Virus record (IMG/VR): IMGVR_UViG_3300007770_000008 | DNA from: an uncultured virus (IMG/VR IMGVR_UViG_3300007770_000008) | Lineage: Duplodnaviria > Heunggongvirae > Uroviricota > Caudoviricetes | Length of the DNA: 64,000 nucleotides | Strand: one strand, 5' to 3' | Shown here: piece by piece, positions 50,868-63,640 of the stretch | Position numbering within the stretch: position 1 is the first letter of the stretch | How the letters are laid out: every line of letters begins with the position of its first letter | The notes under the pieces: generated by a model | What the model was told of the DNA's origin: nothing | What the model saw: only the letters and a program-made list of their open reading frames with translations | The model's database searches: none | Position numbers and translations under genes: made by a program

Positions 50868-50879
50868 TGGTCTCTTGCC

Positions 50880-51488: not shown

Positions 51489-51807
51489 TTTGTCGATACT
51501 CCGGGTACTCCGTTATGGTTACCTTGTCAGTGATCTCTGCAACCATGATGGCCTCTTGTTCGTAGAACTTCGCCGTCATGTCAGTGATCTGTGACATGAT
51601 TTTGTCAGTTGTCACGATGCGTACCGGTATCATCCGCTCAGTGAACAGCTCACCGGACGGGTTGATCCAGTACCCTTTGCTGGGTGACAAGATCGTCAAG
51701 CCACCTGTCAACCGCCGCACGCGTCGGTCCCACTCTCGGTGATGCCGCGTGCGGATCGGTACGCCCTGGTTTGTTTGGCAGGGCACCAAGATCTCGAACA
51801 ACTTCAT
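51445..51807 (-). CDS. Hypothetical protein
   Basis: Start moved to MKLFEI (AGGAGG RBS) because the longer ORF overlaps tRNA-Pro. Confidence 0.55.
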   Translation of the reverse strand: MKLFEILVPCQTNQGVPIRTRHHREWDRRVRRLTGGLTILSPSKGYWINPSGELFTERMIPVRIVTTDKIMSQITDMTAKFYEQEAIMVAEITDKVTITEYPEYRQNEQETREVEKPVES

Positions 51808-51820
51808 AACCCCTCCTAAG

Positions 51821-51893
51821 TCTGGCAGGTAGGATTCGAACCTACAGCCTGAGGCTCCCAAAGCCTCCGTGCTACCTTACGCACCCCTGCCAG
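51821..51893 (-). tRNA. tRNA-Pro(TGG)
   Basis: CTGGCAG/CTGCCAG acceptor, GAGGC-TTTGGGA-GCCTC, GTAGG-TTCGAAT-CCTAC; G rather than T at position 8. Confidence 0.85.
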
Positions 51894-52456
51894 GTTATGC
51901 TTTGACGGAGCCTGGTGCGAATCGGATCAAGCCCTCGTCTTTGATATCTTCTAAGTAGATCGCTACCTTGTGCTTCAAGGTCTTGGCGGGTTTCCACAGT
52001 CCTTGTAAGTGCTTGGCCATTACGCTACCGACTACGGTGTACTTACCAGCGGCATTGCCGTAGGCCAAAAAGATCTCGTCGTCAGCAGCCGGATCGACAT
52101 AAAGCGGGTCACGGCGATCGCAGGTCCATGAGTTCGTTCTCTCCCGCTCCAAGTAGCTACACATCTTAGAGTGGAAAGGACCACCGCTGTAGTCGGGGTC
52201 GTAGCCAGGCTTTTCATAGAAGGCCCAGTCCAGTTTACCTAGGTCACGCCCGCACACCCGGTACCAATTACGCGTTCCCAGTTCTGTGCTTTTGCCAGCA
52301 CGTTCTCGGATCAGTCGATGCGGTCCGGAGTCGCTGTTGTGTATATCTCTCCTTGAACGTAGTTCCTGCAGCTTGGTACACCAGGTCCGAATTCGAGTCA
52401 CGACGCGAGGATGCAGCTGCCGGGTAGGCAACCACATCCCCACGGCTCGCTCGTAC

Positions 52457-53266
52457 TCAAGGGAGCACAGCTGCCTCGGTGCATGGGTCTTGTCCAAAGA
52501 ATACAACCTCCTCGCGATTCAGGATCTGTGTCAGCCTTGGTAGGTGACTTCGCTGATATCGTCGTCGGAATGTAGGTTGAGACTCCTCCTCGTCATTCAT
52601 CGGCAATTCGTCATAAAACCGCCGAACGTAAGTGCCCCGCTTCTTCCAGTCATCGAGGTTGTTCCAGTTGACCCCGTGCTCCTGAAATACAAGTTCTTGA
52701 ACCGCGTCGTTCTTGAGCCCATTCATCCTTGCGTGCCCCAGCAAGTGCTGCCCCAGGCTTTGGATGCTGTTGCGTACGGCGTCCTGCTCTCGCCAGATCA
52801 GGTAGTTTATGGCTTCCATCCGGTCGGGCACGTTCCAGCAGCGACAGTCGAATAGAGCGGACGGCTTGTTCCGCAACACCTCGGATGAGGACTTGGCCAG
52901 CCTGCCCATGAACTGTATTGAGCAGGTGGCCGCAAGGATCGAGTTGATCTTGTCACGACGACCGTCGAACCACACGTCACTGTTGGGGATGTAGCGGCCC
53001 TCTTCGTCACTGTTGGGATCAAGCACCAACGAGATCTCGTCGGATTGGGTGTAGGCACAACAGGCGTTCGCCTCCTCCGCCAGGAGCCGGGTAGTGGCCT
53101 TCATAGCGTTATGGAAGAAAGGATCGAAAGGGCGGTCTAATCCTTTAGTCCAGGTATGAAATGCCCGACCGTCCAAGCGAATGAGGACAGGTTGTCGCGG
53201 CATCATTCGCGGCGGACTGAAGCTCTCGTAGTGCTTCATCCGGTCGCCTAGCGTTTTGAATTCCAT
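52457..53266 (-). CDS. Thg1-like 3'-5' nucleotidyltransferase (tRNA-His guanylyltransferase family)
   Basis: IRLDGRAFH, YTQSDEISL, FDGR..K, FDCR, WREQDAVRNSI. Confidence 0.92.
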   Translation of the reverse strand: MEFKTLGDRMKHYESFSPPRMMPRQPVLIRLDGRAFHTWTKGLDRPFDPFFHNAMKATTRLLAEEANACCAYTQSDEISLVLDPNSDEEGRYIPNSDVWFDGRRDKINSILAATCSIQFMGRLAKSSSEVLRNKPSALFDCRCWNVPDRMEAINYLIWREQDAVRNSIQSLGQHLLGHARMNGLKNDAVQELVFQEHGVNWNNLDDWKKRGTYVRRFYDELPMNDEEESQPTFRRRYQRSHLPRLTQILNREEVVFFGQDPCTEAAVLP

Positions 53267-53373
53267 CGATTACACCGGGGGAGGAAAGAATATCGCGGAG
53301 AATACAGGGGTAAGCAAAGCACACAGGATACAGATGATCGCAACAATCACAAGCCACTCGACAGCGGACATTT

Positions 53374-53778
53374 TCATTGGTTCTTCTCGTTTGCGAAGGT
53401 TAGGTGAAAGGGGTAGAAGGGCTCGGGACCCAAACCCAGCTCCACGCGGATCTCCGTCAAGCGGGGACTGCGAACAGGCAGCCAGTAGTGTAGCCCGTCG
53501 GTCTTCGCTTCTAGCGAGTAATCGATAGTTACGATTTCGCCGTTGTAGGCAGCCCAAGCTTCTTTGTTGGGTGGCTCTTCGTCACGGATCACAGTCACGT
53601 GTTCCCGCCAAGCTGGCCGTATCAGCTTCTTGGTGAAGCAGGTCGACATGTGATACAGGTGGCGATAGTACTTACCGATCTCCGTTAGCTCACCGTTCTC
53701 GGCCACTAACCACCACTTCGACGCGGACTTACTGCCCAGCAGTTCAGGGCTGTAGCGGAGGACCGCTTTGGCCATCAT
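53374..53778 (-). CDS. 2H phosphoesterase-like protein
   Basis: Two HxT motifs: EHVTVI and FHLTFA. Confidence 0.7.
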   Translation of the reverse strand: MMAKAVLRYSPELLGSKSASKWWLVAENGELTEIGKYYRHLYHMSTCFTKKLIRPAWREHVTVIRDEEPPNKEAWAAYNGEIVTIDYSLEAKTDGLHYWLPVRSPRLTEIRVELGLGPEPFYPFHLTFANEKNQ

Positions 53779-53988: not shown

Positions 53989-55620
53989 TCAGCCTCGAAT
54001 GAATTCACTCATCACGGCTGGTGCCGACGTGTCAAACCCGACAATGTCGAGCATTCCTGCGTCGTTCGGGTCGGCGATGGAGAAGCCGTTGCTCACCATA
54101 CCTACCACGATCAACTTAGCCGGAATACCTGTCTTCTGTCGGTATTGTTCCAAGGCCTGGACTGGTTGGATGTTACCTGCCCATGTTTCGCTGTCCGTGT
54201 AGACGACAAAAGCATCGGCCTCGATCTTGTTCTCTAAGGCATACAGTATCGGAAGTGAGCAGTCAGTGCCGCCGAACGGCAAACCGCTAACCTTCTTGAT
54301 GGCTGTATCCAATCGCATCTTACGACTGAAGTCCAGCTGCAAAAGCGACTTAGGCGTTAGGGCCTGGAACCAACCACGACCAGTGGTTTTGGCCGAGAAG
54401 CCGATGCAGTGAGTCCATGCCTCGGTTTTCGTAGTCACCATAGCCAGGGCCGCCGTAGCATCTCGGCAGGTGATCTGCGAATTCTGCATAGCACAACCCA
54501 TCGATCCCGATACGTCCAAAGCCAGCAAGTGACGCTTGCCTGTCGGAACCACGTTGTCAAAAGCCATGTAGAAGGCATCTTCCAACGCGTCGCCGATGTT
54601 GTTGTCAACGTTCCAGCTTAGCTGGCCACGGAAACCACGTCCCGAGCGGTACGTGTACATTGCGTTCATGATGTTAAACGGATGCAGCCGCGAGGCCTTG
54701 ATGTATTCCGGATCGGTCAACTTCGACACGATCAACTGCGTAGCCGAGCCCATCGGCGTGATAAGCCCCACTTGAGACATCTTGCCCAGGTTCCGCATCA
54801 TCGCGTTCAGCGGCATTGACGGAAGCATTGCCGCCCACACTTCTGGGTCCTTGAACCACTGAGTAGGAATGACTTCGCGAACCAGACCGTGCTCTTCGAT
54901 CAGCTGGAGGATATTCCGCTTATCGGTAACAACCTTGGCCTGCTCAACCGCGTTCAGGTAGTCGCGGGCCTCACCTTCCGGCAATTTCGATCGCCAGTCC
55001 TTGCCGGTCGTGTAAGCTAACACGCCGTCCAGATGAGCATCTTCGGTCTTGGGCTTTACGCAACGCAGTACGTCACGGTGTGACCAGCCTTCTCGTTGCT
55101 GGTACTTGGTGACCTGGTAAGCCAGGTTCTTGGCCCGACGACCTAGGTACCAGTTGCCGACAGCTCGGCGGACGGCTCGGCCACGGCCCCGGAAATGACT
55201 CAACATCCCCATGAATTGGAAGAGGTGCGTGCCAATACGTGCGACCTTGTTCAGCTCAGCCAGTGCCTTACCGCTCTGTGCCGGGTCGGGACGACTGCAC
55301 AAGAGAGCCAGTGCGAAAAGTGCTTCGTCGTTCTTCGGGGCACGCCCCTGATCGCTGATCTCGACAACGGTAGCCAGTGTGCGATCGAAATCCTCATTCG
55401 CACAGTCCTCTACGGCCTGGGCCGCTTCTTTCGTCATCTTGCGTTCGGAGGCATAGTAGGAGCCGCCCGAGTTTCCGAGAACCAGAAACCTGTGCAACCG
55501 CGTCCAGTTGTCAACGGGAAACGAGTACCCGCCAGCCTGGTTTTGCACCATGACTTTACCTGGAATCGCTTCCGACTGCGGAGTCTTTTTCCGACTAACG
55601 TGTCCTGCATACTTGGCCAT
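53989..55620 (-). CDS. rsr: Ro60/Rsr TROVE-domain RNA-binding protein
   Basis: NQAGGYSF, RLHRFLVLG..GGSYY, KYQQREGWSHRD, RLHP, vWA MIDAS DVSGSM, GGTDC, TDSETW, VGFD. Confidence 0.95.
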   Translation of the reverse strand: MAKYAGHVSRKKTPQSEAIPGKVMVQNQAGGYSFPVDNWTRLHRFLVLGNSGGSYYASERKMTKEAAQAVEDCANEDFDRTLATVVEISDQGRAPKNDEALFALALLCSRPDPAQSGKALAELNKVARIGTHLFQFMGMLSHFRGRGRAVRRAVGNWYLGRRAKNLAYQVTKYQQREGWSHRDVLRCVKPKTEDAHLDGVLAYTTGKDWRSKLPEGEARDYLNAVEQAKVVTDKRNILQLIEEHGLVREVIPTQWFKDPEVWAAMLPSMPLNAMMRNLGKMSQVGLITPMGSATQLIVSKLTDPEYIKASRLHPFNIMNAMYTYRSGRGFRGQLSWNVDNNIGDALEDAFYMAFDNVVPTGKRHLLALDVSGSMGCAMQNSQITCRDATAALAMVTTKTEAWTHCIGFSAKTTGRGWFQALTPKSLLQLDFSRKMRLDTAIKKVSGLPFGGTDCSLPILYALENKIEADAFVVYTDSETWAGNIQPVQALEQYRQKTGIPAKLIVVGMVSNGFSIADPNDAGMLDIVGFDTSAPAVMSEFIRG

Positions 55621-55690
55621 TCTTTTCAGCCCTCCTTAGGGCAAAGTGCAATAAAAAAGACGCGGACCAGAAGGCCCACGTCATGTGAGG

Positions 55691-55838
55691 TGCGGGTAAG
55701 CAAGGCGAAGAACGCGTGCTTTCGATATAGAGGTGGAACCCCTATTGCTCTCACCAGTGAGCGGCCTCCCCGTGAGTTGGCAGCGGGGAGGGTTGAATTC
55801 GAATCAACAAATCGTTAACGTTCATCTATCAACCCGCA
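55691..55838 (-). ncRNA. YrlA-like Y RNA with tRNA-like module
   Basis: Terminal stem GCGGGTTGA/CTTACCCGC; internal T arm GTTGA-TTCGAAT-TCAAC, closed acceptor CCTCCCCG/CGGGGAGG, D arm GCTC/GAGC; directly upstream of rsr. Confidence 0.8.
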
Positions 55839-55846
55839 TGTGTTGA

Positions 55847-55938
55847 GTCGAGCAAGTTAGTTGAAACTCCGGGTAACCTGGAAGTCGAAACACCAGGTCG
55901 CTAATTGGCAGCGATAACAGAATTTCTTTCAGCTCGAC
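55847..55938 (-). ncRNA. Y-RNA-like element
   Basis: GTCGAGCTGA...GTTATC...CTTGCTCGAC terminal stem; internal CTGCCAA and a TTCGA hairpin. Confidence 0.7.
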
Positions 55939-55941
55939 GAG

Positions 55942-56015
55942 TGACCCGGCCTGGGTTTGAACCAGGATAACCACGTGATTGTGTACACGCCGCTCTCACT
56001 TGGCGTAACGGGTCA
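55942..56015 (-). ncRNA. Degenerate tRNA-like RNA
   Basis: GACCCG/CGGGTC acceptor and CCTGG-TTCAAAC-CCAGG T arm; irregular 8-nt anticodon loop. Confidence 0.5.
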
Positions 56016-56018
56016 GTG

Positions 56019-56603
56019 TCAAATGTCGGCTGGCTTGGTGGCCACGCCTGTGACCATATAAACCAACTTCTCAAGTTTAGCCCAAATCCCGAATCCGTCA
56101 AGTATAGGGTTCAGGAACTCGCTCATCACACAATAGCTGCTATCGTATGGAGGCGTATGGTGGGTTTTGTGTGTAGCAGGGCTTTGCAACAGGCCTATGG
56201 CCTGTAGCTTACGGATCACGGCGTTGCATTTCATATGCTCCCAGCAGTGTATCTCGTTAGCCTGGGACACAAACAACAAAACCAATAACCCCCAGTAGTA
56301 GGCCGCCGACAGCTGCCAAACGACCAAGATACTCAGATAGGTCACCCCTAACAACAACGGAGGGATCAGGGTAGTGTAATTGCGTTGCCAGTAGTTGCCT
56401 CTGGTAAACGCTGCTGGCCGCTCGTGGTGGACCTTGTTTGGCTCAGCTACGTACTTCCCGAAGATGGGAATATCTTTCAAGTAGCCGTAGTACCGGTCCT
56501 CGAACCAGTGAAACGCACCGGCTATAAAGTCCGCAGCCAACCAGCACAATACAACATTGCCAAGTGCTCCCATCATTGCCCGCTCCTTAGCTAATTCTGT
56601 CAC
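56019..56603 (-). CDS. CarF/TMEM189-like lipid desaturase
   Basis: ADFIAGAFHWFED, VHH, NEIHCWEH, HKTHH..P...YC His boxes with TM helices. Confidence 0.8.
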   Translation of the reverse strand: MTELAKERAMMGALGNVVLCWLAADFIAGAFHWFEDRYYGYLKDIPIFGKYVAEPNKVHHERPAAFTRGNYWQRNYTTLIPPLLLGVTYLSILVVWQLSAAYYWGLLVLLFVSQANEIHCWEHMKCNAVIRKLQAIGLLQSPATHKTHHTPPYDSSYCVMSEFLNPILDGFGIWAKLEKLVYMVTGVATKPADI

Positions 56604-56752
56604 TAAAAAGAACCGTGCGGGGCGTGACTCCGCCTTACACTCCTTCGGTAGCCCGATTACTACAGGTGTGCTAGACCTGATCTATATTCGAAGGACGGTT
56701 CTTGGGTAAGCCGTTCTGTCTCCTATGTGGGTGTTAAGAGAGTATCGGCTTG

Positions 56753-56806
56753 GGTAACGATCTACCGGCAGCCCTGTTGCCAGGGTAAGTTGTGGTCGAT
56801 CGGTGC
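56753..56806 (-). ncRNA. Orphan permuted Ro-stem module
   Basis: CTTACCCTG-GCAA-CAGGGCTG...GTTACC, same layout as the tRNA inserts but with no flanking tRNA recognised. Confidence 0.55.
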
Positions 56807-56840
56807 TCCGCAGCGGACGTTTCCGCCTGAACGGAGCGAG

Positions 56841-56909
56841 TTGCGGATCCAGGGGTCGCACCTGGCGGGTCGGGCTTATGAGGCCTAACTGGGCACTGGC
56901 CCATCCGCA
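56841..56909 (-). tRNA. tRNA with CAT anticodon (Met or Ile2), atypical
   Basis: TGCGGAT/ATCCGCA acceptor, GGC-CTCATAA-GCC, CCAGG-TGCGACC-CCTGG; short D arm. Confidence 0.65.
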
Positions 56910-57532
56910 ACTAGCAATTTAGTGCTACAACGTCATCAGGTCAACTAGATCTGCCACCTAACCAGTAACCGACGCTGAACCAGAAAAAGAACCAGCCTGT
57001 GGCGAGCAAAACCCAGCCCACTATTTCTATAAACGACATCGCGGCTTCTCCTGTGTGGTGCGGGTTCGGCGTTTACTTGGTCGCCAACGGATACGCATCC
57101 ACAAACGCAGATCGCGACAAATCGCCCAGGAGGCGATGACGGCCATAGCTAGCAGAGCCAGTGTGTAACCCAGCGGCATGTTATTCTCCCGGACAAGCAC
57201 ATTTTTCGGGTTTATCCGCCAAGGGATAGATTTCGTCCCATCCACCTGGCCCGAGTGCGTCACCGTAGTAATTTTCGTGACGCCCGCACTTACGGCATTC
57301 CCGTGCCCAGGGGTTACGGTATTTCCAGTCATGTCCGCCGAAGAACAGCCACCACAGGCGTCTGATGATCATGCGAAACTCTCTCCTGACGGGTCTTGGA
57401 ACTCGCAGTAGATTGGTCTGGCGTCGACCTCTACATCACTGGGTGGGTCGATTGTTTCGCAGTGGATGACTAACGTATACCCATCCCCCACTAACCTGCC
57501 ACCGCAATTCGGACATGAGTCGAAGTTAGGCG

Positions 57533-58237
57533 TCATGCGAAACACTCTTCCGGGATCTCGACGACATCCTGACCCAGGCGGAAATCACGAGCTTTAAGTT
57601 TGGTGATGATACGGTTACCCATACGGTCTTTGAGTTCCGTGCTAGGCCGCAACACCAAACCCTCAGCCCACTGGGTGCCTACAAACGATGTAAACCCGGT
57701 TTGGGTATACTTTGCGGCCTCGAGCAAAGTACCTTTGCCCACGACGGGTACGAAGGGTAAACCCATTTCCCGTCCGTATTCTTCAACGTCTTCTCGAGCG
57801 AAGAACACATCCAGCCCATTTTCGTCATTGACCGACATGATATCGAACAGGATAAATCGCTGCTCTCCGTCAGTCATGTAGTCGCCACCGCCTTTCATGA
57901 TGCCCGAACCGTAGCCTTCGCCACACAGTACCAGGTTACCCTCGGGACCGAAGACGCTCTTAAGCATTTCGGGCGTGAAGGTCTTGGCCAGGTATTGCAC
58001 CAGCCTGCCAGGGATCTGTGCGTTGTCGGTGCGGCCACCGAAGATGACGTCATCGTTGTGTAGGGCCCCTCCCCAGAAGATACGGATGTTGGTACCGTCG
58101 ATCTTCTCGGTCCAGGTCCATTCGTTGTTTCGTAGCAAGTGGAACTCGGGGCGGCTCCACTCGCCAAAGTTAAACGTCTTGTTGTTATTCACCGGGTCCC
58201 GATGAAACAGGCTCTGGATCTTGTGATACTTTTGCAT
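57533..58237 (-). CDS. Rnl2-like RNA ligase
   Basis: Motif I TEKIDGTN, GEGYG, FDI, EGLVLR, ITKLK. Confidence 0.85.
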   Translation of the reverse strand: MQKYHKIQSLFHRDPVNNNKTFNFGEWSRPEFHLLRNNEWTWTEKIDGTNIRIFWGGALHNDDVIFGGRTDNAQIPGRLVQYLAKTFTPEMLKSVFGPEGNLVLCGEGYGSGIMKGGGDYMTDGEQRFILFDIMSVNDENGLDVFFAREDVEEYGREMGLPFVPVVGKGTLLEAAKYTQTGFTSFVGTQWAEGLVLRPSTELKDRMGNRIITKLKARDFRLGQDVVEIPEECFA

Positions 58238-58240
58238 CGG

Positions 58241-58816
58241 TCACCTGAAAGTTGTTGAGAAGGTCAGTTCTGTCCTTTTGTCGTAATGGTCTCGTTTGAA
58301 ACCTGCTGTCTCGATCGCCGCTAACGCCTCGTCGTACAAGGTGTCGCTGGCGTGACCAATTCGCTTGAGCAAATTGACCTTCTCGGCAACGAACAGGCTG
58401 GCGAATTGCTCCGGGGCTCCGCCCATGTCTTGTATATTGTCAATGACGTCGATCATCTTGATTCGCTTGGCCCAGTCGCTCACGCCCGCGAGACGCTGGT
58501 GATCGAGGTACTTCCGTACCGGGCGGCTTAGGTCCGGCACCCATTTGGACACGTTTGTCAGCTCGTCTACTAGCTGGATAGTTTCAAACGAGAATTTGAG
58601 ATTGTGCAACGTGCGAAGACTATAGGCCCCGCAGTCCTCAACTACGTCATGGAGCCAAGCTGCCGCGATCTGGTCTTCAGTAACGTTCGTCTCAAGCGTC
58701 GTTCTTGCGGCAACCCTAGCCGGGTGTTCAATGAACGGGCGACCAGTCCACTTTCGTGTCTGGTCCTCATGGGCCACGTCTGCGAGTTGTGCCGCAAATA
58801 TAATGGTGTTTTGCAT
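58241..58816 (-). CDS. HD-domain hydrolase (Mesh1/SpoT-HD-like)
   Basis: AHEDQTRK...FIEHP, AWLHDVVED, IKMID.IDN; start moved to MQNTII. Confidence 0.85.
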   Translation of the reverse strand: MQNTIIFAAQLADVAHEDQTRKWTGRPFIEHPARVAARTTLETNVTEDQIAAAWLHDVVEDCGAYSLRTLHNLKFSFETIQLVDELTNVSKWVPDLSRPVRKYLDHQRLAGVSDWAKRIKMIDVIDNIQDMGGAPEQFASLFVAEKVNLLKRIGHASDTLYDEALAAIETAGFKRDHYDKRTELTFSTTFR

Positions 58817-58833
58817 GGTGTCCTTTCGATCGT

Positions 58834-59472
58834 TTAAGCCTCGTAGGCCATAATTTGCTGAACAGCAATGATGGCACGATCGGTGCTGAACCAGCCCGAA
58901 TCGTCCCGAAGCTTGCTCTCCATGTCTATCCACCAGTGATCGCCTTGCAGCAAATCTCCAATCCGGGGCAGCTCGGTGGCCAAGTTGTCAGGCCCCAGGC
59001 CTCCTGCAAACCCTACAGGCTTGACGGTGTCGGGCCTGCTCCAGGTTTCTGGCGTGATCCCTCGGCCACCAGAATTGTCGACGAGTATTGAGTGATTAGG
59101 TAGTTCCAAATCAATCAGGTCGTGATTGTTTTCGGTGGCTTGGGTGATGATCGTGTGATCCGTGTATATTTCACACAGATCTATCAGAAGCTTCTCGGAG
59201 ACAGTACCGTTCACCTGTATTCTCTGAACAAGGTGAGTCAGCTCCGGTATTTCGTAGTTCTCTAGCTGCTGCCGGGCTTCCCGACCGCATACATGCAGAG
59301 CGGTTAGTCGGTGGCGTAGTTCCGAAAGTATTCGCCAGGCAGTCTTACGTGAAGGGTACCGTGTACGCCCTCGCGGCCTACAAGTGTATAGCACCGCTAG
59401 TTCGCAACTCTTAGGTAGCCACTGCACATCGGTGCGGGCATCTAGCCCGGTAAGGGTGATTTTGTGAAGCAT
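58834..59472 (-). CDS. TrpF-like TIM-barrel protein
   Basis: ITLTGLD, LVDNSGGRG, GFAGGLGPDN, WIDMESKLR; start moved to MLHKIT. Confidence 0.7.
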   Translation of the reverse strand: MLHKITLTGLDARTDVQWLPKSCELAVLYTCRPRGRTRYPSRKTAWRILSELRHRLTALHVCGREARQQLENYEIPELTHLVQRIQVNGTVSEKLLIDLCEIYTDHTIITQATENNHDLIDLELPNHSILVDNSGGRGITPETWSRPDTVKPVGFAGGLGPDNLATELPRIGDLLQGDHWWIDMESKLRDDSGWFSTDRAIIAVQQIMAYEA

Positions 59473-59479
59473 CGTATAT

Positions 59480-60853
59480 CTAGTCCCCTGGGAAGAACAC
59501 TGGCTGGCCTTCGCTCTTGGCACTTGCGTCTTGTAGTCCGAAGGCCATTTCAAGGTCCTCCTTTGGTGGTTTCCTGTTTTCGACACGAACAGTGCAGCTC
59601 GGCGGCGTCGGGTTGTCCGGGCTTAAAATGGCTCGCAACAGCTTTGCCTGAATATCCGCCATGCTTTTGCCGCGTTCTACGTAGCCGAGCAGTTGCTGTG
59701 TTTCTTTTGGGTCAAGTTCGCGATCAAGCAATGCGGTAGCCATGTTAAGTGCTTGTTCGTTGGTGGCAGCAGGCAAGTGCACTTGAAGGTCCACGCGACC
59801 CGGTCTGATCAGTGCCGGGTCTAGCTTTTCAGGGTGATTGCTAGTCATGATGACTAGCCTGCCTGCTGAGCGGGTAATCCCGTCCAAAGCATTGAGAATA
59901 CCCGACAACGTCAAGCCGTAACCCATTTCACCGTCAATAAGCGTAATAGACGTCTGCCTGTCTTCTTCGTCGTCACCCCGTCGACGTTGTGTAACGGCGG
60001 CACAGTCTATGTCTTCGATCAGCAGAACGCAGCGAGAAGGTATTCCTTCTACCAGCTTGGCGAATTTCGCGTCGTTCAACCCACTCGCCAGCGACAACGT
60101 GTATACGTTCAACTCGAGGTGGCTAGCAATCGCGGCAACAGCAGTGGTCTTACCGCAGCCAGGTGGGCCAGCAAACAGGTAGCCTCTGCGGTGCGGTAAG
60201 CCATGTTGCTCATACCAGTCGCCGTCGGCAATGAATTTGTCAACGTCCTGTATAACGCGGTGCAACTGACCTTCCGGCCAGAAGACATTGTCTAAGCTAC
60301 GTTGTTGCCCTTTACCGACGCTGTACCAGCCGCTGTCGAAACGGTATACCCAGTACCAGCCTCTAGACGGTGGGCCCCAAGACGCGTCTCTCGCGGTGGC
60401 GACGAAGTCGTATATGAATTCTTTTCCCCAACATAGGGTACTGAGCTGCACCGTTTCCTCGTATGCCTTGTTAGACCCGGCCTTGCTTTCAAGCTCACGC
60501 CTGGTCCGGTCGAACCACAGCGGCCAACCTTTGAACCAGATTATGTGCCAACCTGGTGCCAGGCTTATTCGTAGATCCGGCCTCTCGCCGTAGTCTCCTG
60601 GGTTGACTGTTCTGAGTGACCAGAATCCTCGTACGTAGTGTTCAGTGTGTTCGTCTAGCCAGTCGAAAATCCAGCCAGTCGCAGGATCATTGTCCGTCAG
60701 CAACATCGTGGTCACTGTATAACGCTTGATCCAGTAGTAGATCTTGTGCGGTACGTTTCGTAGGTAGGCCAGGATTCCTGCTAGTATGCCTAGCATCAGC
60801 CCGCCGGTGAAGAACTGGTTGTCGGACGTTAGCAGGCTTGTGAGCCATTCCAT
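59480..60853 (-). CDS. BCS1-like membrane-anchored AAA+ ATPase
   Basis: N-terminal TM, PG.H..W, RRGYLFAGPPGCGKT, LLIEDID, TLSGILNALDG, LDPALIRPGRVD. Confidence 0.9.
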   Translation of the reverse strand: MEWLTSLLTSDNQFFTGGLMLGILAGILAYLRNVPHKIYYWIKRYTVTTMLLTDNDPATGWIFDWLDEHTEHYVRGFWSLRTVNPGDYGERPDLRISLAPGWHIIWFKGWPLWFDRTRRELESKAGSNKAYEETVQLSTLCWGKEFIYDFVATARDASWGPPSRGWYWVYRFDSGWYSVGKGQQRSLDNVFWPEGQLHRVIQDVDKFIADGDWYEQHGLPHRRGYLFAGPPGCGKTTAVAAIASHLELNVYTLSLASGLNDAKFAKLVEGIPSRCVLLIEDIDCAAVTQRRRGDDEEDRQTSITLIDGEMGYGLTLSGILNALDGITRSAGRLVIMTSNHPEKLDPALIRPGRVDLQVHLPAATNEQALNMATALLDRELDPKETQQLLGYVERGKSMADIQAKLLRAILSPDNPTPPSCTVRVENRKPPKEDLEMAFGLQDASAKSEGQPVFFPGD

Positions 60854-60873
60854 TACATAGCTCCTAGGGTATG

Positions 60874-60902
60874 AAAAAAGCCCCGCCAGAACGGCGGGGC
60901 TT
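60874..60902 (-). terminator. Intrinsic terminator closing the RNA array
   Basis: Minus strand AAGCCCCGCC-GTTCT-GGCGGGGCTT-TTTT. Confidence 0.8.
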
Positions 60903-60957
60903 AGTTGGGGCAGGGGCTCGGTTTTTCACCGATAAAGCATGCACACCCCTACATAAG

Positions 60958-61079
60958 TTGCAGGCCTGGGAGTCGAACCCAGTCGGCCTCAGTTCAAATG
61001 AGGATAACAGTCTTGCGATCAGCCCGTTGCCGGGCAAGTTAGTGCTGGACCGCGTTTAGCCTGTCACCAGACACCTGCA
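60958..61079 (-). ncRNA. tRNA-Y chimera, anticodon loop TGA (Ser)
   Basis: TGCAGGT/GCCTGCA acceptor, T arm CTGGG-TTCGACT-CCCAG, insert 61003..61058, CCTCA-TTTGAAC-TGAGG. Confidence 0.75.
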
Positions 61080-61341
61080 ATTGATGATTGTAATTGTACC
61101 CTTACTACTTGTTTCTAGCAACCACCTGAGGGATCGACTAACTCTATAGTAGCGAAGATATGCGGCTCGTCCTCCGCACTGTACTGGTGTTTCAGGTCAG
61201 TATGGTAGAGCTGGGTTACACGGTAGCGGCCAGGGACGACCTCGACTTGCTCGTGATAATCGTCCACAAGTTCGTCATACAGTTCCGCCCCGCACGTGCC
61301 CAGGGTTACTGGGCAGAGGTAGGCCAGATGAAGCCCTAGAG

Positions 61342-61467
61342 TGGTAGGGGCAGGATTCGAACCTGCACTAACTCGGTGTAAACGAGATAACAATCTACCT
61401 GTCAGCCTGTTGCCGGGCAAGGTAGTGGTGGATCGTGTTGTTGTGCTAACCATTACACTACCCTACC
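61342..61467 (-). ncRNA. tRNA-Y chimera, anticodon loop TAC (Val)
   Basis: GGTAGGG/CCCTACC acceptor, D arm, insert 61386..61439, AC|TCG-TTTACAC-CGAGT, GCAGG-TTCGAAT-CCTGC. Confidence 0.8.
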
Positions 61468-61473
61468 AAATTA

Positions 61474-61539
61474 CCGGGTAAGTGGACGTCGTGAAGGGCG
61501 GATCATTTACAGTGATAACCTTCATTGACTTCAACCCGG
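61474..61539 (-). ncRNA. Minimal Y RNA with Tyr(GTA) loop
   Basis: CCGGGTTGA...GTTATCA-CTGTAAA-TGAT...CTTACCCGG. Confidence 0.7.
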
Positions 61540-61542
61540 AAG

Positions 61543-61669
61543 CTGCAGGCCCTGGAATCGAACCAGGTCTAGCCTCTTAGCAGGAGGATAACAATCTACC
61601 TGTCAGCCCATTACTGGGCAAGTGTACGGTGGATCGGTTTTTGCTGTGCTACCATTACACTAGCCTGCA
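61543..61669 (-). ncRNA. tRNA-Y chimera, anticodon loop GCT (Ser)
   Basis: TGCAGGC/GCCTGCA acceptor, insert 61587..61642, GC|CTC-CTGCTAA-GAGGC, CCTGG-TTCGATT-CCAGG. Confidence 0.8.
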
Positions 61670-61674
61670 AAATA

Positions 61675-61750
61675 TGCGGGTAAGGGTTTGGGGAAGGCGT
61701 TTCGTACATCTTCCAAAAAGTTGTGATAACCTTCTTCCAATCAACCCGCA
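61675..61750 (-). ncRNA. Minimal Y RNA (loop identity unclear)
   Basis: TGCGGGTTGA...GAAGGTTATC...CCTTC...CTTACCCGCA. Confidence 0.7.
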
Positions 61751-61752
61751 AG

Positions 61753-61821
61753 TCGTAAAGCCGGGAGTCGAACCCAGTACCCGCACAAGCGGGCAAGCCA
61801 GCGTTTGCTACGCACTTCACA
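61753..61821 (-). ncRNA. Short tRNA-like RNA with truncated Ro stem
   Basis: TGTGAAG/CTTTACG acceptor, GCGT/ACGC D-like arm, CTTGCCCGC-TTGT-GCGGGT, CTGGG-TTCGACT-CCCGG T arm. Confidence 0.55.
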
Positions 61822-61827
61822 ATAAAG

Positions 61828-61955
61828 AGCCAGAGCTGGGACTCGAACCCAGGACCTAAAGTTGGAGTTAACGATTAACCTTCAGCCCGTCGATCGGGCA
61901 AGCTAACGGAAAACCGTGTTTAAGACTTTTGCTCTACCAACTGAGCTACTCCGGC
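61828..61955 (-). ncRNA. tRNA-Y chimera, insert in the anticodon loop, TCC (Gly)-like
   Basis: GCCGGAG/CTCTGGC acceptor, canonical GCTCAGTTGGTAGAGC D arm, AAAGT-CT|TCCA-ACTTT, insert 61867..61922. Confidence 0.75.
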
Positions 61956-62028
61956 TTGGTGCGATTGGTAGCCCTTTCAATGCTACTTTTAGGGCGTTGC
62001 CTCTCAGCACTCCGCAACCGCATAAATA

Positions 62029-62090
62029 GCGAGCAAGTGGACGCGTTAGGGGTGATATCTTAAAAGGATAACCCTAGTGCTTCAGCTCGC
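62029..62090 (-). ncRNA. Minimal Y RNA with Lys(TTT) loop
   Basis: GCGAGCTGA...GTTATC-CTTTTAA-GATA...CTTGCTCGC. Confidence 0.7.
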
Positions 62091-62095
62091 GTGTG

Positions 62096-62462
62096 TCATC
62101 GTAGGAGGTCGATCCTCCCCTTTCCTAGTACTTGTTTGATTGTAGCGGATTTACCTGACCGGTGATCCTTTACCAGGCCCGACTTGAAGTCATAGGTTCG
62201 GACCGTCGTATTGTCATGGATCTTTGCGTCTCGGTCGGCTTTCTTCTCAGCAGCCCGTTTCTCCGCTTTGGCTTCGGCAAGTCTCTTGCTAAAGACGCCG
62301 TAACGCTTCCCGCTTGTTCTTGTGCTGGTCACGTCCGTCGATAGTGACGGAAATACCAGTAGGAATGTGGGTGGCTCGGACACAGGAATCGGTTTTATTC
62401 TTGTGCTGTCCGCCTTTACCCTTTCCACGGAAGGTTTCGATCTTCACGTCTTTCTTGTTCAC
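62096..62462 (-). CDS. GGQ peptidyl-tRNA hydrolase / release-factor-like protein, split by a +1 frameshift
   Basis: AGGAG RBS and GTG at 62462; [28 protein letters not shown] stops at CTT-TAG (62294..62289); VRTYDF...VKDHR continues in the +1 frame. Confidence 0.75.
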
Positions 62463-62491
62463 GAGACTGCTCCTAAGTAATCATCAGCAAG

Positions 62492-62618
62492 GCAGGCCAC
62501 TAGGAGTTGCACCTAGACTACCGGCTCCGAATGCGTTAACGATTTCCATTCAGCCCGTTTCCGGACAAGGGGCTGGAGACCGCGTTTTACGGCGTGCTAT
62601 CTGTTACACTATGGCCTG
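62492..62618 (-). ncRNA. tRNA-Y chimera, anticodon loop TCG (Arg)
   Basis: CAGGCCA/TGGCCTG acceptor, insert 62535..62589, CCG|GC-ATTCGGA-GCCGG, CTAGG-TGCAACT-CCTAG. Confidence 0.75.
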
Positions 62619-62626
62619 CATAAGTA

Positions 62627-62694
62627 ATGTGGGTAAGGTGATTGTTCGAAGGGGTTCTTCATTTGGGGTGATAACCTTCAACTTCAACCCACAT
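62627..62694 (-). ncRNA. Minimal Y RNA with Trp(CCA)-like loop
   Basis: ATGTGGGTTGA...GTTATCA-CCCCAAA-TGA...CTTACCCACAT. Confidence 0.7.
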
Positions 62695-62731
62695 AACTAT
62701 CGTAGTAACGCCCCCTGGAGGCGTCAAGTGC

Positions 62732-63640
62732 TTAATTCGGATTGAGCGTAGCAAAGGCTTCTTCAACCAGAGCCCTTGCCTTGTCCGACGGCTCGTCCGG
62801 CGTTTCGTCTTCTCCGAAGTCGTCCCCTTCCAACTCTCGGATTCGGGCAATAGCCTCGTCCGACGTCTTCTGGAAAACTACTACGGAAATCAGCAGCTCT
62901 TTGAGGGCTGCCAGACTAAAGCCCTCTGTTTGGCTTGCCCAGGTAGCCAGGGTTTCCGCAGGCACGTCAAAACTGCTTTGACCGGCGACGAACTCCAAGT
63001 ACTCTTGCCGTTGGGGCTTACCAGGCTGGCCTATCTCCAGCAAGGTGTCGATCCGGGAAGGTCGGCAACGAATTCGCTTCGGAACTTCGTCAAGGTTATT
63101 GGTTGTTGCCAGGAAAAGGATCCCGTGGCCCATGCTCGTAGAGCCGTCCATGAGTTCCAGTAGTTCTTCCTCTTCGCCGTACTCACAGATACGCTCGATG
63201 TCTTCGATTACACCTAGTACCGGACGTCCCGGCTCGATTTGACGAAGCAGTGGCATGCAGCTCCGGAAATGGTCCACCCCGGATATGAACGTGACAACTC
63301 CCTTACGCTCGATCGTGTCCCGGATTACCAGTTGGACAATTCCGGTTTTGCCGCAACCAGGAGGCCCGTGGAGGAGTACACCACGTTTGTGGGTCACGCC
63401 CAGGTTTTTGTAGTGCTCGCCTGTGCTCCAAAACCGCCGGATCTCCTCAACGATTTCATGAGCAGGTCCGTTACGGAATTCACACAACCGCTCATCTTTC
63501 TGCTGCTTGCGGTTTGCCAGCGGGTTGCCCCAGTTGTCTGTTTTGAAGTGGTACAGCCCAGAAGGCAACTGGTCAACAGTCTCGTGCGTGCCGGTGTAGA
63601 CATCACGAGACGTGTTGTGGCTCCATTGCTTAAAACTCAT
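62732..63640 (-). CDS. AAA+ ATPase
   Basis: KRGVLLHGPPGCGKT, VIEDIE, LATTN, RPSRID. Confidence 0.88.
   Translation of the reverse strand: MSFKQWSHNTSRDVYTGTHETVDQLPSGLYHFKTDNWGNPLANRKQQKDERLCEFRNGPAHEIVEEIRRFWSTGEHYKNLGVTHKRGVLLHGPPGCGKTGIVQLVIRDTIERKGVVTFISGVDHFRSCMPLLRQIEPGRPVLGVIEDIERICEYGEEEELLELMDGSTSMGHGILFLATTNNLDEVPKRIRCRPSRIDTLLEIGQPGKPQRQEYLEFVAGQSSFDVPAETLATWASQTEGFSLAALKELLISVVVFQKTSDEAIARIRELEGDDFGEDETPDEPSDKARALVEEAFATLNPN

What the first reader, a model, noticed from the sequence alone, without database searches (positions are those of the whole stretch)
55691..62694. A library of anticodon loops displayed on Ro60-binding RNAs: possible anticodon-nuclease decoy array
Seen: in most family members the GTTAWC box is followed within 0-4 nt by an anticodon-type loop, and the loop differs between copies. 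They are CTGTAAA (Tyr), CTTTTAA (Lys), CCCCAAA (Trp-like), CTGCCAA (Gly), TTTGAAC (Ser), TTTACAC (Val), CTGCTAA (Ser) and ATTCGGA (Arg). The Tyr, Lys and Ser(GCT) loops match typical bacterial tRNA loops. The minimal forms have no acceptor or T arm, so cannot decode. The two Ser chimeras lack the long variable arm SerRS needs. Established: anti-phage and toxin nucleases cut anticodon loops (PrrC and PARIS AriB on tRNA-Lys, colicin E5 on Tyr/His/Asn/Asp, colicin D on Arg, VapCs), and Rsr/YrlA operons are linked to tRNA damage and RtcB repair. Inference: a constant scaffold with variable payload that lets phage Ro60 RNPs decoy, sense or template repair of tRNA cleavage.
Basis: partly seen in the sequence, partly recalled or inferred. 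Interest (0 to 1): 0.88.

Follow-up and report, generated by a model that had tools for sequence, protein, structure and literature searches.

The report
Phage Y RNAs carrying anticodon-arm mimics

Summary
All elements lie on the minus strand, upstream of a Ro60 gene (53989-55620), inside a phage RNA-repair gene island. There are 12 clear Y-RNA modules plus 2-3 fragments. Some are short hairpins of the YrlB type. Others are whole tRNAs with a capped Ro60-binding hairpin inserted between the D arm and the anticodon arm.

- Five hold up: M2 CUUUUAA, M4 CUGUAAA, C3 CUGCUAA, C4 UUUACAC, C5 UUUGAAC.
- Two are weak: M1 and C1.
- One is not there: M6.

The pattern is far above chance. In the window it is 5 of 11 modules, against 0.3 in shuffles. 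It also generalises:
- 47 of 136 modules in viral relatives;
- 54 of 179 modules next to bacterial rsr genes.

Those loops have a C32-U33-NNN-A37-A38 profile with few A34. In 46 of 52 T-arm modules the loop sits at tRNA-like distance from the T stem.

This stem-loop is the one that published YrlA models draw as a "variable arm". The decoy idea is untested, and a competitive-inhibitor role for YrlA is already in print. Known nuclease-target anticodons are not clearly enriched. Verdict: a real new variant of a known kind, function open.

The parts
53989..55620 (-). Ro60 gene (TROVE + Ro60 vWA domains), 543 aa
   Evidence: Pfam PF05731 at 1e-39 and PF25045 at 5e-65. It is 42-53% identical to Ro-like proteins of actinophages and IMG/VR contigs.
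55659..55682 (-). Terminator-like hairpin plus T run, directly after M5 and before the Ro60 ribosome-binding site
   Evidence: 10-bp stem followed by TTTTTT.
55691..55838 (-). M5: long Y RNA. Terminal stem UGCGGGU/ACCCGCA, box GUUAAC, then a T-arm-like hairpin GUUGA/UUCGAAU/UCAAC and three more hairpins. No anticodon-like loop after the box.
   Evidence: z = -3.35.
55847..55938 (-). M6: Y RNA with box UGUUAUC.
55945..56012 (-). M7: fragment with GGUUAUC followed directly by a T-arm-like hairpin CCUGG/UUCAAAC/CCAGG. It lacks the Ro60 5'-strand motif.
56753..56803 (-). C6: capped Ro60-type hairpin (CUUACCCUGG-CAA-CAGGGCUGCC) with the variant box GUUACC. No anticodon-like loop follows.
56836..56910 (-). 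Degenerate tRNA-Met-like cloverleaf (GGC/CUCAUAA/GCC, T loop UGCGACC), just upstream of C6
   Evidence: ARAGORN calls tRNA-Met(cat) at 56840-56909. It is not reported by Rfam's tRNA model even at E <= 1. Fold. A promoter-like site lies at 56944-56916.
60878..60902 (-). Terminator-like hairpin plus T run, closing the upstream array after C5
   Evidence: 11-bp stem.
60958..61079 (-). C5: tRNA-Y chimera. Parts are acceptor UGCAGGU/GCCUGCA, a capped Ro60 hairpin, box UGUUAUC, anticodon-arm mimic CCUCA/UUUGAAC/UGAGG (UGA, Ser-like), a 4-nt linker and a T arm.
   Evidence: The MFE shows all helices. Unpermuted class. Geometry. ARAGORN calls Ser(tga) in 46 of 196 hairpin-deleted variants.
61342..61467 (-). 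C4: tRNA-Y chimera with anticodon-arm mimic CUCG/UUUACAC/CGAG (UAC, Val-like)
   Evidence: Rfam tRNA model, 47.8 bits with a 67-nt insert. Other evidence.
61474..61539 (-). M4: minimal Y RNA. Terminal stem CCGGGU/ACCCGG, box GGUUAUC, apical AUCA/CUGUAAA/UGAU (GUA, Tyr-like).
   Evidence: The hairpin is in both MFE and centroid.
61543..61669 (-). C3: tRNA-Y chimera with anticodon-arm mimic CCUC/CUGCUAA/GAGG (GCU, Ser-like) and discriminator G
   Evidence: (Ser(gct) in 91 of 196 variants), 70 and 90. ARAGORN calls its 3' part tRNA-Ser(gct).
61675..61750 (-). M3: minimal Y RNA whose apical hairpin has a 3-5-nt loop, not anticodon-like
   Evidence: The folded range was shifted: it cut 5 nt of the 3' strand. 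The apical part is unaffected.
61755..61812 (-). X: fragment made of a Ro60-type 3'-strand hairpin (CUUGCCCG...CGGGUA) plus a T arm. No box.
61828..61955 (-). C2: tRNA-Y chimera. The Ro60 hairpin is embedded in the anticodon-stem position, and there is no separate stem-loop after the box.
   Evidence: Rfam tRNA model, 58.5 bits with a 56-nt insert. Unpermuted class.
62029..62090 (-). M2: minimal Y RNA with apical UAUC/CUUUUAA/GAUA (UUU, Lys-like)
   Evidence: The hairpin is in both MFE and centroid.
62096..62462 (-). GGQ-domain (RF-1 domain) gene inside the array, in two frames joined at CTT TAG C
62491..62620 (-). C1: tRNA-Y chimera with a non-canonical T loop (UGCAACU). After box GUUAAC comes GC/AUUCGGA/GC, a degenerate 2-bp stem.
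   Evidence: The same loop at the same place occurs in L014.
62629..62692 (-). M1: minimal Y RNA. After the box comes UCA/CCCCAAA/UGA, with 3 bp and C33: weak.
62699..62727 (-). Promoter-like site whose -10 hexamer ends 7 nt before the first base of M1
   Evidence: TTGACG-17-TACGAT. Promoter-like sites overall are not above shuffles (6 found against 4.7).

Best explanation
This is an array of Y RNAs, partners of the phage's own Ro60.

Shared parts of every copy:
- The Ro60-docking helix: 5' strand GGG-Y-UGA, 3' strand CUU-R-CCC.
- The Y-RNA box GUUAUC.

Two builds:
- 'Chimeras' (C1-C5) are complete tRNAs in normal gene order. The docking helix, capped by a small loop, is grafted between the D arm (position 26) and the anticodon stem (position 27).
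- 'Minimal' forms (M1-M4) keep only the docking helix. It is open at the RNA ends and capped by the anticodon stem-loop.

What the 'anticodon loops' are. They are retained anticodon arms of tRNA-derived Y RNAs. This is the element that published YrlA models call the V (variable) stem-loop.

Shown:
- the anatomy;
- the tRNA-like spacing;
- the C-U-NNN-A-A profile;
- recurrence in relatives.

Inferred:
- The RNAs are cut out of long transcripts by tRNA-processing enzymes and bound by Ro60.
- They present a tRNA or anticodon-arm look-alike to proteins that read anticodon loops.

The leading concrete version is competitive inhibition, or baiting, of tRNA-cleaving nucleases during the phage-host conflict over tRNAs. 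The neighbouring ligase and end-healing enzymes would deal with the damage. Which protein reads the loops is unknown.
For: Anatomy and setting
- All modules lie on the strand of Ro60 and upstream of it.
- The docking motif resembles the GGUCCGA / GNCGAAN0-1G motif of PMC4201824 (section 6 read).
- The box contains the UUAUC motif conserved in animal Y RNAs and sbRNAs (PMC4726728, passage). It also contains the YUAY said to begin the V loop in YrlA (PMC4201824).

tRNA nature of the chimeras
- The Rfam tRNA model hits C2 and C4 with 56- and 67-nt inserts.
- In 24 aligned chimeras, 3 of them from the window, acceptor pairs 1-7 covary. Positions 3-5 changed on both sides in 13-14 of the 24 sequences.
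- Unpermuted order is found in 4 of 4 window modules that have a canonical T arm.

Anticodon-arm nature of the stem-loop
- Window: 5 of 11 modules, against 0.3 in shuffles.
- Viral relatives: 47 of 136, against 65 of 690 background boxes, p = 2e-12.
- Bacterial rsr loci: 54 of 179, against 7.5 +/- 2.7 in shuffles.
- Profile of the 101 loops: C32 in 67, A34 in only 10, A37 in 79, A38 in 77, with 44 different triplets.
- Spacing: 9 or 10 nt between loop end and T stem in 46 of 52. That is the length of a 5-bp stem plus a 4-5-nt variable loop, often reading AGGUC.
- Identical loops sit on different stems in different genomes. CUGUUAA occurs on five different stems. CUGCUAA sits on UUCAA/UUGAA in one genome and UCUAA/UUAGA in another.

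Processing
- The two ordinary tRNAs of the window lack an encoded CCA and end N73-CUG or N73-CUU. Four of the five chimeras end N73-CUU or N73-CUC.
- Minimal forms end about 6 nt before the next chimera's acceptor stem.
- Terminators close both arrays.

Context and precedent
- Neighbouring genes: RlaP, Thg1-like, 2H phosphoesterase, Rnl2-like RNA ligase, HD hydrolase and a GGQ-domain gene.
- PMC7790460 (section 17 passage) proposes that YrlA's tRNA-like domain 'acts as a competitive inhibitor' of an anticodon nuclease. It also links rsr-yrlBA-rtcBA to tRNA cleavage.
Against: - Seven of the 12 window modules have no convincing anticodon-like loop. About two thirds of modules in relatives have none either. 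The loop therefore cannot be essential to every Y RNA.
- Nothing shows that the RNAs are made, bound by Ro60, or touched by any nuclease.
- Within-locus diversity equals random expectation: 1 of 26 loci has a repeated anticodon, against 1.45 expected.
- The feature is equally frequent next to bacterial rsr. That argues against a phage-specific counter-defence.
- The only YrlA tested at the bench (Salmonella) has no anticodon loop and is not cleaved (10.1101/312249 and PMC7790460, passages).
- The ARAGORN check is weak. Deleting the hairpin gives tRNA calls with the expected anticodon, but variants with a shuffled stem-loop are also often called. The counts are 127 against a shuffled mean of 65 (max 125) for C3; 156 against 93 (max 143) for C4; and 52 against 9 (max 25) for C5.
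- The modules counted are not phylogenetically independent.
Confidence: 0.55

Rival explanations
1. The loops are relics. Y RNAs of this clade are born again and again from tRNA genes, by grafting or losing the docking helix. The anticodon arm then survives only as a stable hairpin cap, and its triplet has no reader and no meaning.
For: - The triplets are broad: 44 different among 101 loops, with no clear enrichment of nuclease targets.
- Within-locus diversity is as expected by chance.
- Many modules have lost the arm or carry 3-6-nt or 8-nt loops instead.
- Y modules sit inside or beside tRNA arrays, for example in phage Forza.
Against: - C32, U33, A37 and A38 are kept while 34-36 vary. A34 is avoided, as in working tRNAs.
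- The minimal forms have lost every other tRNA part yet keep the 7-nt loop.
- The same loop recurs on different stems across distant genomes.
Confidence: 0.2
2. The stem-loop is a U-turn docking site for a Ro60 partner unrelated to tRNA reading, for example PNPase or another nuclease or helicase. In this reading Y-RNA loops tether effectors, and the likeness to anticodon loops is structural convergence or reuse.
For: - Y RNAs are known tethers of Ro60 to PNPase (PMC4201824, introduction passages).
- Loops of the form AUUGGRA and AUGCAAA recur in several relatives, as a protein-binding motif might.
- The adjacent UUAUC motif is functionally important in animal Y RNAs for reasons unrelated to tRNA (PMC4726728, passage).
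Against: - The arm sits at exact tRNA spacing within a complete tRNA body carrying an AGGUC-type variable loop.
- The central triplet is highly variable, which is unlike a single protein's binding site.
Confidence: 0.13
3. The chimeras are working or regulated tRNAs. They would be processed, given CCA and charged, with Ro60 holding or releasing them. Alternatively their tRNA body serves mainly as a punctuation mark, so that RNase P and RNase Z release the neighbouring minimal Y RNAs.
For: - They have normal gene order with free acceptor ends.
- Their 3' trailers resemble those of the phage's true tRNAs.
- M. smegmatis YrlA is cut by RNase P and receives CCA (PMC4201824, section 8 passages).
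- C4 has Val-like A35, C36 and A73 (the identity rules are recalled).
- Minimal forms directly precede chimeras.
Against: - A hairpin of about 50 nt at the 26/27 hinge is unknown in decoding tRNAs.
- The Ser-like chimeras lack the long variable arm.
- C1 and C2 have no usable anticodon arm.
- The minimal forms carry the same loops without any acceptor.
- Punctuation does not explain the conserved loop profile.
Confidence: 0.1

Closest known systems
YrlA / YrlB, the Y RNAs of Salmonella Typhimurium, Mycobacterium smegmatis and mycobacteriophages (Chen et al. 2014, PMC4201824; Rfam RF02553; structure in 10.1101/312249)
   Same: - Encoded beside and on the strand of Ro60.
- Docking motif near the GNCGAA type.
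- Conserved YUAY/UUAUC box.
- tRNA-like T and D arms.
- A less conserved stem-loop between the box and the T arm.
- A second, shorter hairpin RNA (YrlB) next to it.
- Several RNAs cut from one precursor.
   Different: - Published YrlA is circularly permuted: the T arm lies before the D arm, the acceptor is closed by a loop, and the docking helix sits at the RNA ends. The window's chimeras have normal tRNA order, with the docking helix as a capped insert.
- RF02553 gives no hit in the window at E <= 1. It gives 36 and 27 bits on phages Catera and BearBQ.
- The stem-loop is drawn as a variable arm in print. Here it has the size, profile and spacing of an anticodon arm.
- There are about 12 copies rather than 2.
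Deinococcus radiodurans Yrn1
   Same: A Y RNA whose tRNA-like part was modelled with a possible 'anticodon arm' of 5 bp. Its arm order also differs from YrlA (PMC4201824, sections 6 and 10 passages).
   Different: Its loop has 6 nt and there is no full D arm. It is a single RNA, not a set with different triplets.
Animal Y RNAs and nematode stem-bulge RNAs
   Same: A bulged Ro60-binding helix with a GGUCCGA-like 5' strand, and the UUAUC motif at the start of the loop domain (PMC4201824 and PMC4726728, passages). The Rfam sbRNA family RF01656 weakly hits the two Y RNAs of phage BearBQ, at E = 0.02-0.03.
   Different: They have no tRNA body and no anticodon-like hairpin is described for them. Their functions are in RNA surveillance and DNA replication.
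Phage tRNA genes that replace or outwit host tRNAs attacked by anticodon nucleases
   Same: Both are phage-borne and carry tRNA-shaped anticodon loops. They lie near RNA-ligase and end-healing genes, in a conflict over tRNA integrity.
   Different: Those are decoding tRNAs. Most elements here cannot decode, and all carry a Ro60 handle.

Membership tests
Y RNA (Ro60-bound noncoding RNA, broad sense) | Encoded close to, and on the same strand as, a Ro60/TROVE gene | tested here: met
   The Ro60 gene lies at 53989-55620(-). All modules lie on the minus strand, 70 nt to 7 kb upstream.
Y RNA (Ro60-bound noncoding RNA, broad sense) | Helix with the conserved 5'-strand motif (GGUCCGA in animals, GNCGAAN0-1G in bacteria) and a partly complementary 3' strand | tested here: met
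   GGG-Y-UGA pairs with CUU-R-CCC in 12 modules. RNAalifold keeps this helix in 24 of 24 chimeras. It is a variant of the published motif, with U in place of C before the GA.
Y RNA (Ro60-bound noncoding RNA, broad sense) | UUAUC / YUAY motif after the upper stem | tested here: met
   GUUAUC in 8 modules, GUUAAC in 3 and GUUACC in 1. The motif is taken from PMC4726728 and PMC4201824.
Y RNA (Ro60-bound noncoding RNA, broad sense) | Physical binding to Ro60, and dependence on it for stability | not testable with these tools
   Needs immunoprecipitation or Northern blots.
YrlA (Rfam RF02553) | Match to the family's covariance model | tested here: not met
   There is no RF02553 hit in the window at gathering score. 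There is none at E <= 1 in 55500-62800. Known phage YrlAs score 36.1 and 26.7 bits, against a gathering score of 69.
YrlA (Rfam RF02553) | Circularly permuted tRNA-like domain: T arm 5' of the D arm, acceptor stem closed by a loop | tested here: not met
   The acceptor 5' strand and D arm lie about 80 nt upstream of the box in C2-C5. Acceptor pairs 1-7 covary in unpermuted order. C1 has the same order by reading.
YrlA (Rfam RF02553) | tRNA-like T and D arms, and a stem-loop ('V') between the YUAY box and the T arm | tested here: met
   for C3-C5. C1 and C2 lack the stem-loop.
Bona fide tRNA | Recognised as a tRNA by standard models | tested here: inconclusive
   Rfam's tRNA model passes C2 and C4, but only with 56-67-nt inserts. 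C1, C3 and C5 are not reported. ARAGORN finds none of the intact chimeras as a whole. After in-silico removal of the hairpin it calls Ser(gct), Val(tac) and Ser(tga), but the shuffled control is also often called.
Bona fide tRNA | 7-nt anticodon loop with U33 and a purine at 37, on a stem at 9-10 nt from the T stem | tested here: met
   C3, C4 and C5. The same spacing holds in 46 of the 52 T-arm modules examined.
Bona fide tRNA | Aminoacylation and decoding | not testable with these tools
   Needs charging assays. The minimal forms cannot qualify because they have no acceptor.
Anticodon-nuclease decoy or inhibitor | Bound or cut by a nuclease in a loop-specific way, protecting the real tRNA | not testable with these tools
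   Bench assay only. The idea is in print for YrlA (PMC7790460, section 17).
Anticodon-nuclease decoy or inhibitor | Loops enriched for anticodons of known nuclease targets | tested here: inconclusive
   Lys, Tyr, His, Asn, Asp and Arg (ACG/CCG/UCU/CCU) triplets make up 27 of 101 loops. The expectation is about 16-22%, depending on the null chosen.

The most novel reading that the evidence does not exclude
Ro60 RNPs are a programmable, renewable bait system for tRNA-cleaving toxins. Each Y RNA shows one anticodon arm and soaks up the nuclease that reads it. The docking helix and Ro60 hold the two halves of a cut bait together. The neighbouring ligase and end-healing enzymes then reseal it. The set of triplets in an array would therefore record which tRNA nucleases that phage or bacterium meets. 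This would finally give a function to the tRNA-like domain of bacterial Y RNAs.
Probability: 0.15. Interest if true: 0.9.

Novelty: new variant of a known kind. Interest (0 to 1): 0.62.

Why it matters
What the tRNA-like domain of bacterial and phage Y RNAs binds has been open since 2014. This locus and its relatives show three things:
- Many of these RNAs mimic a whole tRNA, anticodon arm included.
- The commonest build in this Ro60 clade is an ordinary-order tRNA with the Ro60 handle inserted at the D-stem/anticodon-stem hinge. The published covariance model does not find this form.
- One genome can carry up to five different 'anticodons' on the same handle.

That turns a vague idea (YrlA as a competitor of tRNA nucleases) into a loop-by-loop testable one. 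It also tells annotators that odd 'tRNAs with 50-70-nt inserts' next to Ro60 are Y RNAs.

Tried and rejected
- Megablast of the region against 50,697 phage records: no match.
- No whole genome is held for the window.
- Rfam YrlA: no hit in the window.
- Public runs: no RNA holder is listed. Four DNA runs from one marine-metagenome study hold the stretch.
- C2 as a tRNA-Leu(UAA) with an intron at 37/38, which is ARAGORN's intron-mode call: rejected. Its CUUAAAC matches the conserved CUAAAC that follows the D arm in relatives' Y RNAs. No stem-loop follows the box.
- RNAalifold on 24 chimeras. The set was the 3 window chimeras plus 21 of the 36 unpermuted relatives. I left out 15 that showed no 7-nt-loop hairpin by eye. 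It recovers the acceptor, D, docking and T helices. It does not recover the anticodon-like stem, because its register shifts by 1-2 nt between sequences.
- Covariance model R1 (box, stem-loop, T arm). It finds C3, C4, C5 and C2 in the window (E from 2e-9 to 1e-6) but forces one register. I therefore did not use it for pair counts.
- ARAGORN on hairpin-deleted chimeras and on un-permuted relatives. 27 of the 54 T-loop modules gave at least one call; the script's own '24' counted call types, not modules. The test proved permissive in the shuffled control.
- Within-locus diversity test: no signal.
- Enrichment of known nuclease targets: no clear signal.
- Literature searches found no paper describing anticodon-like loops or unpermuted chimeras in Y RNAs within the searchable library. 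The terms were 'Y RNA'+Ro60+phage+tRNA-like, YrlA+anticodon, 'Ro-like RNA binding protein'+tRNA, 'Y RNA'+Rsr+'anticodon stem-loop', and RlaP/'Y RNA'/TROVE.
- The 2020 Annual Review on bacterial Ro60 was not held. I did not open the supplements of PMC4201824. Either might bear on this.

Full report
WHAT IS THERE

The window is part of a phage-like contig. It has a large terminase subunit at 44910-46811, most genes lie on the minus strand, no host genome is held, and the DNA occurs in marine metagenome runs.

The gene at 53989-55620(-) is a Ro60 protein with TROVE and Ro60-vWA domains. Upstream of it, on the same strand, I count 12 modules. Each has a Ro60-type docking motif followed 7-16 nt later by the box GUUAWC, or GUUACC in C6. 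There are also fragments X and M7 and a degenerate tRNA-Met-like gene.

The modules come in two builds.
- Minimal forms (M1-M4; M5 and M6 are longer) are single hairpins. The docking helix is formed by the two RNA ends, and the box lies near the apex.
- Chimeras (C1-C5) start and end with a tRNA acceptor stem and have D and T arms. Between the D arm and the box they carry the docking helix in reverse strand order, closed by a 3-5-nt cap.

Rfam's tRNA model hits C2 (58.5 bits) and C4 (47.8 bits), with inserts of 56 and 67 nt. From 62692 down to 61342 the order is M1-C1-(GGQ gene)-M2-C2-X-M3-C3-M4-C4. C5 follows at 61079-60958.

Folding each element on its own, together with a rule-based hairpin search, gives five well-formed anticodon-type hairpins at the box:
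- M2 CUUUUAA
- M4 CUGUAAA
- C3 CUGCUAA
- C4 UUUACAC
- C5 UUUGAAC

M1's CCCCAAA has a 3-bp stem and C at position 33, and it is not in the MFE. C1's AUUCGGA has a 2-bp stem, and in the MFE it is part of another stem. However, relative L014 has the same loop at the same place on a 3-bp stem. M6's CUGCCAA is not a loop: the fold gives a 5-nt loop.

So the count is 5 of 12, not most.

In 500 shuffles of the 40 nt after each box, the 11 tested modules gave a mean of 0.3 such hairpins and at most 3. My filter dropped M6, which is negative.

RELATIVES

Ro60 homologues occur in 363 phage records. They also occur in hundreds of IMG/VR contigs and bacterial genomes: 485 IMG/VR stretches and 250 genome-contig stretches were confirmed, and the best 80 of each were fetched.

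The docking-motif-plus-box pattern piles up in the 1 kb upstream of Ro60 on its strand. 154 of the 234 plus-strand hits lie there, against 69 hits on the opposite strand anywhere.

Results for non-redundant modules within 1.5 kb upstream:

| Set | Modules | Loci | With N-U-NNN-R-N hairpin at the box (T loops excluded) | Control |
|---|---|---|---|---|
| Viral | 136 | 48 | 47 | 65 of 690 boxes lacking the docking motif, Fisher p = 2e-12 |
| Bacterial | 179 | 60 | 54 | shuffles 7.5 +/- 2.7 |

The shuffle mean for the viral set was 6.2 +/- 2.3, with T loops included.

The 101 loops read like tRNA anticodon loops:
- C32 in 67;
- A34 in only 10;
- U36 in 46;
- A37 in 79;
- A38 in 77;
- 44 different triplets, the commonest being GUU 9, GCA 7, GCU 6, UGG 6, GAU 5 and CAU 5.

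Both builds carry them.
- With a T arm: 49 of 119 modules.
- Without a T arm: 25 of the 54 bacterial loops come from such modules. About half of the 40 viral loops listed do too.

Among the 52 T-arm modules examined, 3 of them from the window, the loop end lies 10 nt (31 cases) or 9 nt (15 cases) before the T stem. That is the length of a 5-bp stem plus a 4-5-nt variable loop. The linker often reads AGGUC.

The same loop recurs on different stems in different genomes. CUGUUAA occurs on ATC, ATCA, TATCA, ACCA and TCAC. CUGCUAA occurs on TTCAA/TTGAA and TCTAA/TTAGA.

TOPOLOGY

Published YrlA is a circularly permuted tRNA-like RNA (PMC4201824, section 6; 10.1101/312249, passages). In this Ro60 clade the normal-order chimera is the commoner form among modules with a T arm:

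| Set | Unpermuted (perfect 7-bp match, plus 6-of-7) | Permuted |
|---|---|---|
| Viral | 24 (+6) | 13 (+1) |
| Bacterial | 35 (+5) | 14 (+2) |
| Window | 4 of 4 | 0 |

In an alignment of 24 chimeras the acceptor pairs covary strongly. The D, docking and T helices are recovered as well. Relative L009, whose Ro60 is 53% identical, has the same alternation of minimal forms and chimeras.

Rfam's YrlA model does not see the window's elements. It scores known phage YrlAs below its threshold.

WHAT IS ALREADY KNOWN

- Chen et al. [quoted passage not shown] The hairpin is therefore known; its reading as an anticodon arm is not in the text I read.
- For D. radiodurans Yrn1 they do mention a possible anticodon arm with a 6-nt loop.
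- The UUAUC motif is conserved in animal Y RNAs and nematode sbRNAs (PMC4726728, passage).
- Hughes et al. 2020 link the rsr-yrlBA-rtcBA operon to tRNA cleavage. They suggest that YrlA's tRNA-like domain 'acts as a competitive inhibitor' of the anticodon nuclease (PMC7790460, section 17 passage).
Another (e1-5268046) found that rows of three to five Y RNAs are common.

CONTEXT AND EXPRESSION SIGNALS

The array sits in an RNA-repair island:
- RlaP nucleotidyltransferase (49947-50867)
- Thg1-like enzyme (52457-53266)
- 2H phosphoesterase (53374-53778)
- Rnl2-like RNA ligase (57533-58237)
- RelA/SpoT-type HD hydrolase (58241-58933)
- two AAA ATPases
- a GGQ-domain gene inside the array

Strong terminator-like hairpins follow C5 and M5. 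Promoter-like sites end 7-15 nt before M1, C5 and the tRNA-Met-like gene, although such sites are not more frequent than in shuffles.

The window's tRNA-Glu and tRNA-Pro lack an encoded CCA and have trailers like those of the chimeras. The chimeras are therefore probably matured like tRNAs. This is an inference, helped by the RNase P and CCA result for M. smegmatis YrlA in PMC4201824.

HOW IT MOST LIKELY WORKS

Shown: a constant Ro60 handle joined to a tRNA, or to a bare anticodon stem-loop, whose triplet differs between copies.

Inferred: Ro60 binds the handle, and the rest is shown to proteins that read tRNAs or anticodon loops.

The most concrete reading is a bait or competitor for tRNA-cleaving nucleases, with the neighbouring ligase and end-healing enzymes handling the damage. 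It fits the gene context and the published proposal.

It is not supported by the two tests I could run:
- Target anticodons are 27 of 101 loops.
- Loops within a locus are no more diverse than chance.

The feature is as common in bacteria as in phages. Whatever it does is therefore a general property of this Y-RNA clade, not a phage invention.

The rivals cannot be excluded:
- a relic of tRNA ancestry;
- a partner-docking U-turn;
- chargeable or punctuating tRNAs.

LIMITS

- There are no expression data.
- The modules are related to each other, so the counts overstate independence.
- The module finder is a regular expression and misses variants.
- Stems of 3 bp were accepted.
- The ARAGORN support is weak.

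Noticed in passing
window 62096-62462 (-): A small GGQ-domain (release-factor domain 3, ArfB/PrfH-like) gene lies inside the Y-RNA array and is split between two frames. The first piece ends ...REALRRL at a TAG. The continuation, which matches release-factor residues 267-331, is in the +1 frame. The junction reads CTT TAG C: a Leu codon, an in-frame stop, then C. This is the design I recall for the programmed +1 frameshift of prfB. It is either programmed frameshifting or a broken gene.
   Followed up: partly
window 56836-56910 (-): A degenerate tRNA-Met-like gene. It has a CUCAUAA loop on a 3-bp stem, a 4-nt D loop and a non-canonical T loop UGCGACC. ARAGORN calls it but Rfam's tRNA model does not report it. 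It sits behind a promoter-like site and directly before the capped docking hairpin C6. C1 has a similar odd T loop (UGCAACU).
   Followed up: partly
L009:2638-2771 and L032:3376-3497: In some relatives the cap of the inserted docking hairpin is itself a 7-nt anticodon-like loop: GACGC/CUCAUAA/GCGUC in L009 and GCC/UUGUAAG/GGC in L032. One RNA may therefore show two such loops. In the window the caps are only 3-5 nt.
   Followed up: no
L003 (Gordonia phage Forza) 7390-8000: Four further docking-motif-plus-box modules lie inside the phage's tRNA array, downstream of Ro60 and the tmRNA. One of them overlaps the feature annotated tRNA-Gln at 7540-7607, which Rfam's tRNA model does not report. It may be a Y RNA filed as a tRNA.
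   Followed up: partly
L002 (Gordonia phage BearBQ) 3730-3950: The Rfam family for nematode stem-bulge RNAs (RF01656) weakly matches both Y RNAs of this phage, at E = 0.02-0.03. This hints at how far the Ro60-binding helix is conserved.
   Followed up: no
window 56019-56603 (-): A lipid-desaturase-domain gene (PF10520, E = 4.6e-39) sits between the two groups of Y RNAs. It is an odd neighbour for an RNA-repair island.
   Followed up: no
window 49947-53778 and 57533-58933 (-): The Ro60 gene is flanked by a full RNA end-healing and sealing kit: RlaP, a Thg1-like 3'-5' polymerase, a 2H phosphoesterase, an Rnl2-like ligase and an HD hydrolase of the RelA/SpoT type. tRNA-Glu and tRNA-Pro genes lie among them.
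   Followed up: partly
bacterial loci L089-L168: Up to 8 Y-RNA modules lie within 1.5 kb upstream of rsr in bacterial genomes of many phyla. Most T-arm-bearing ones are normal-order tRNA chimeras, which the published YrlA model would miss.
   Followed up: partly
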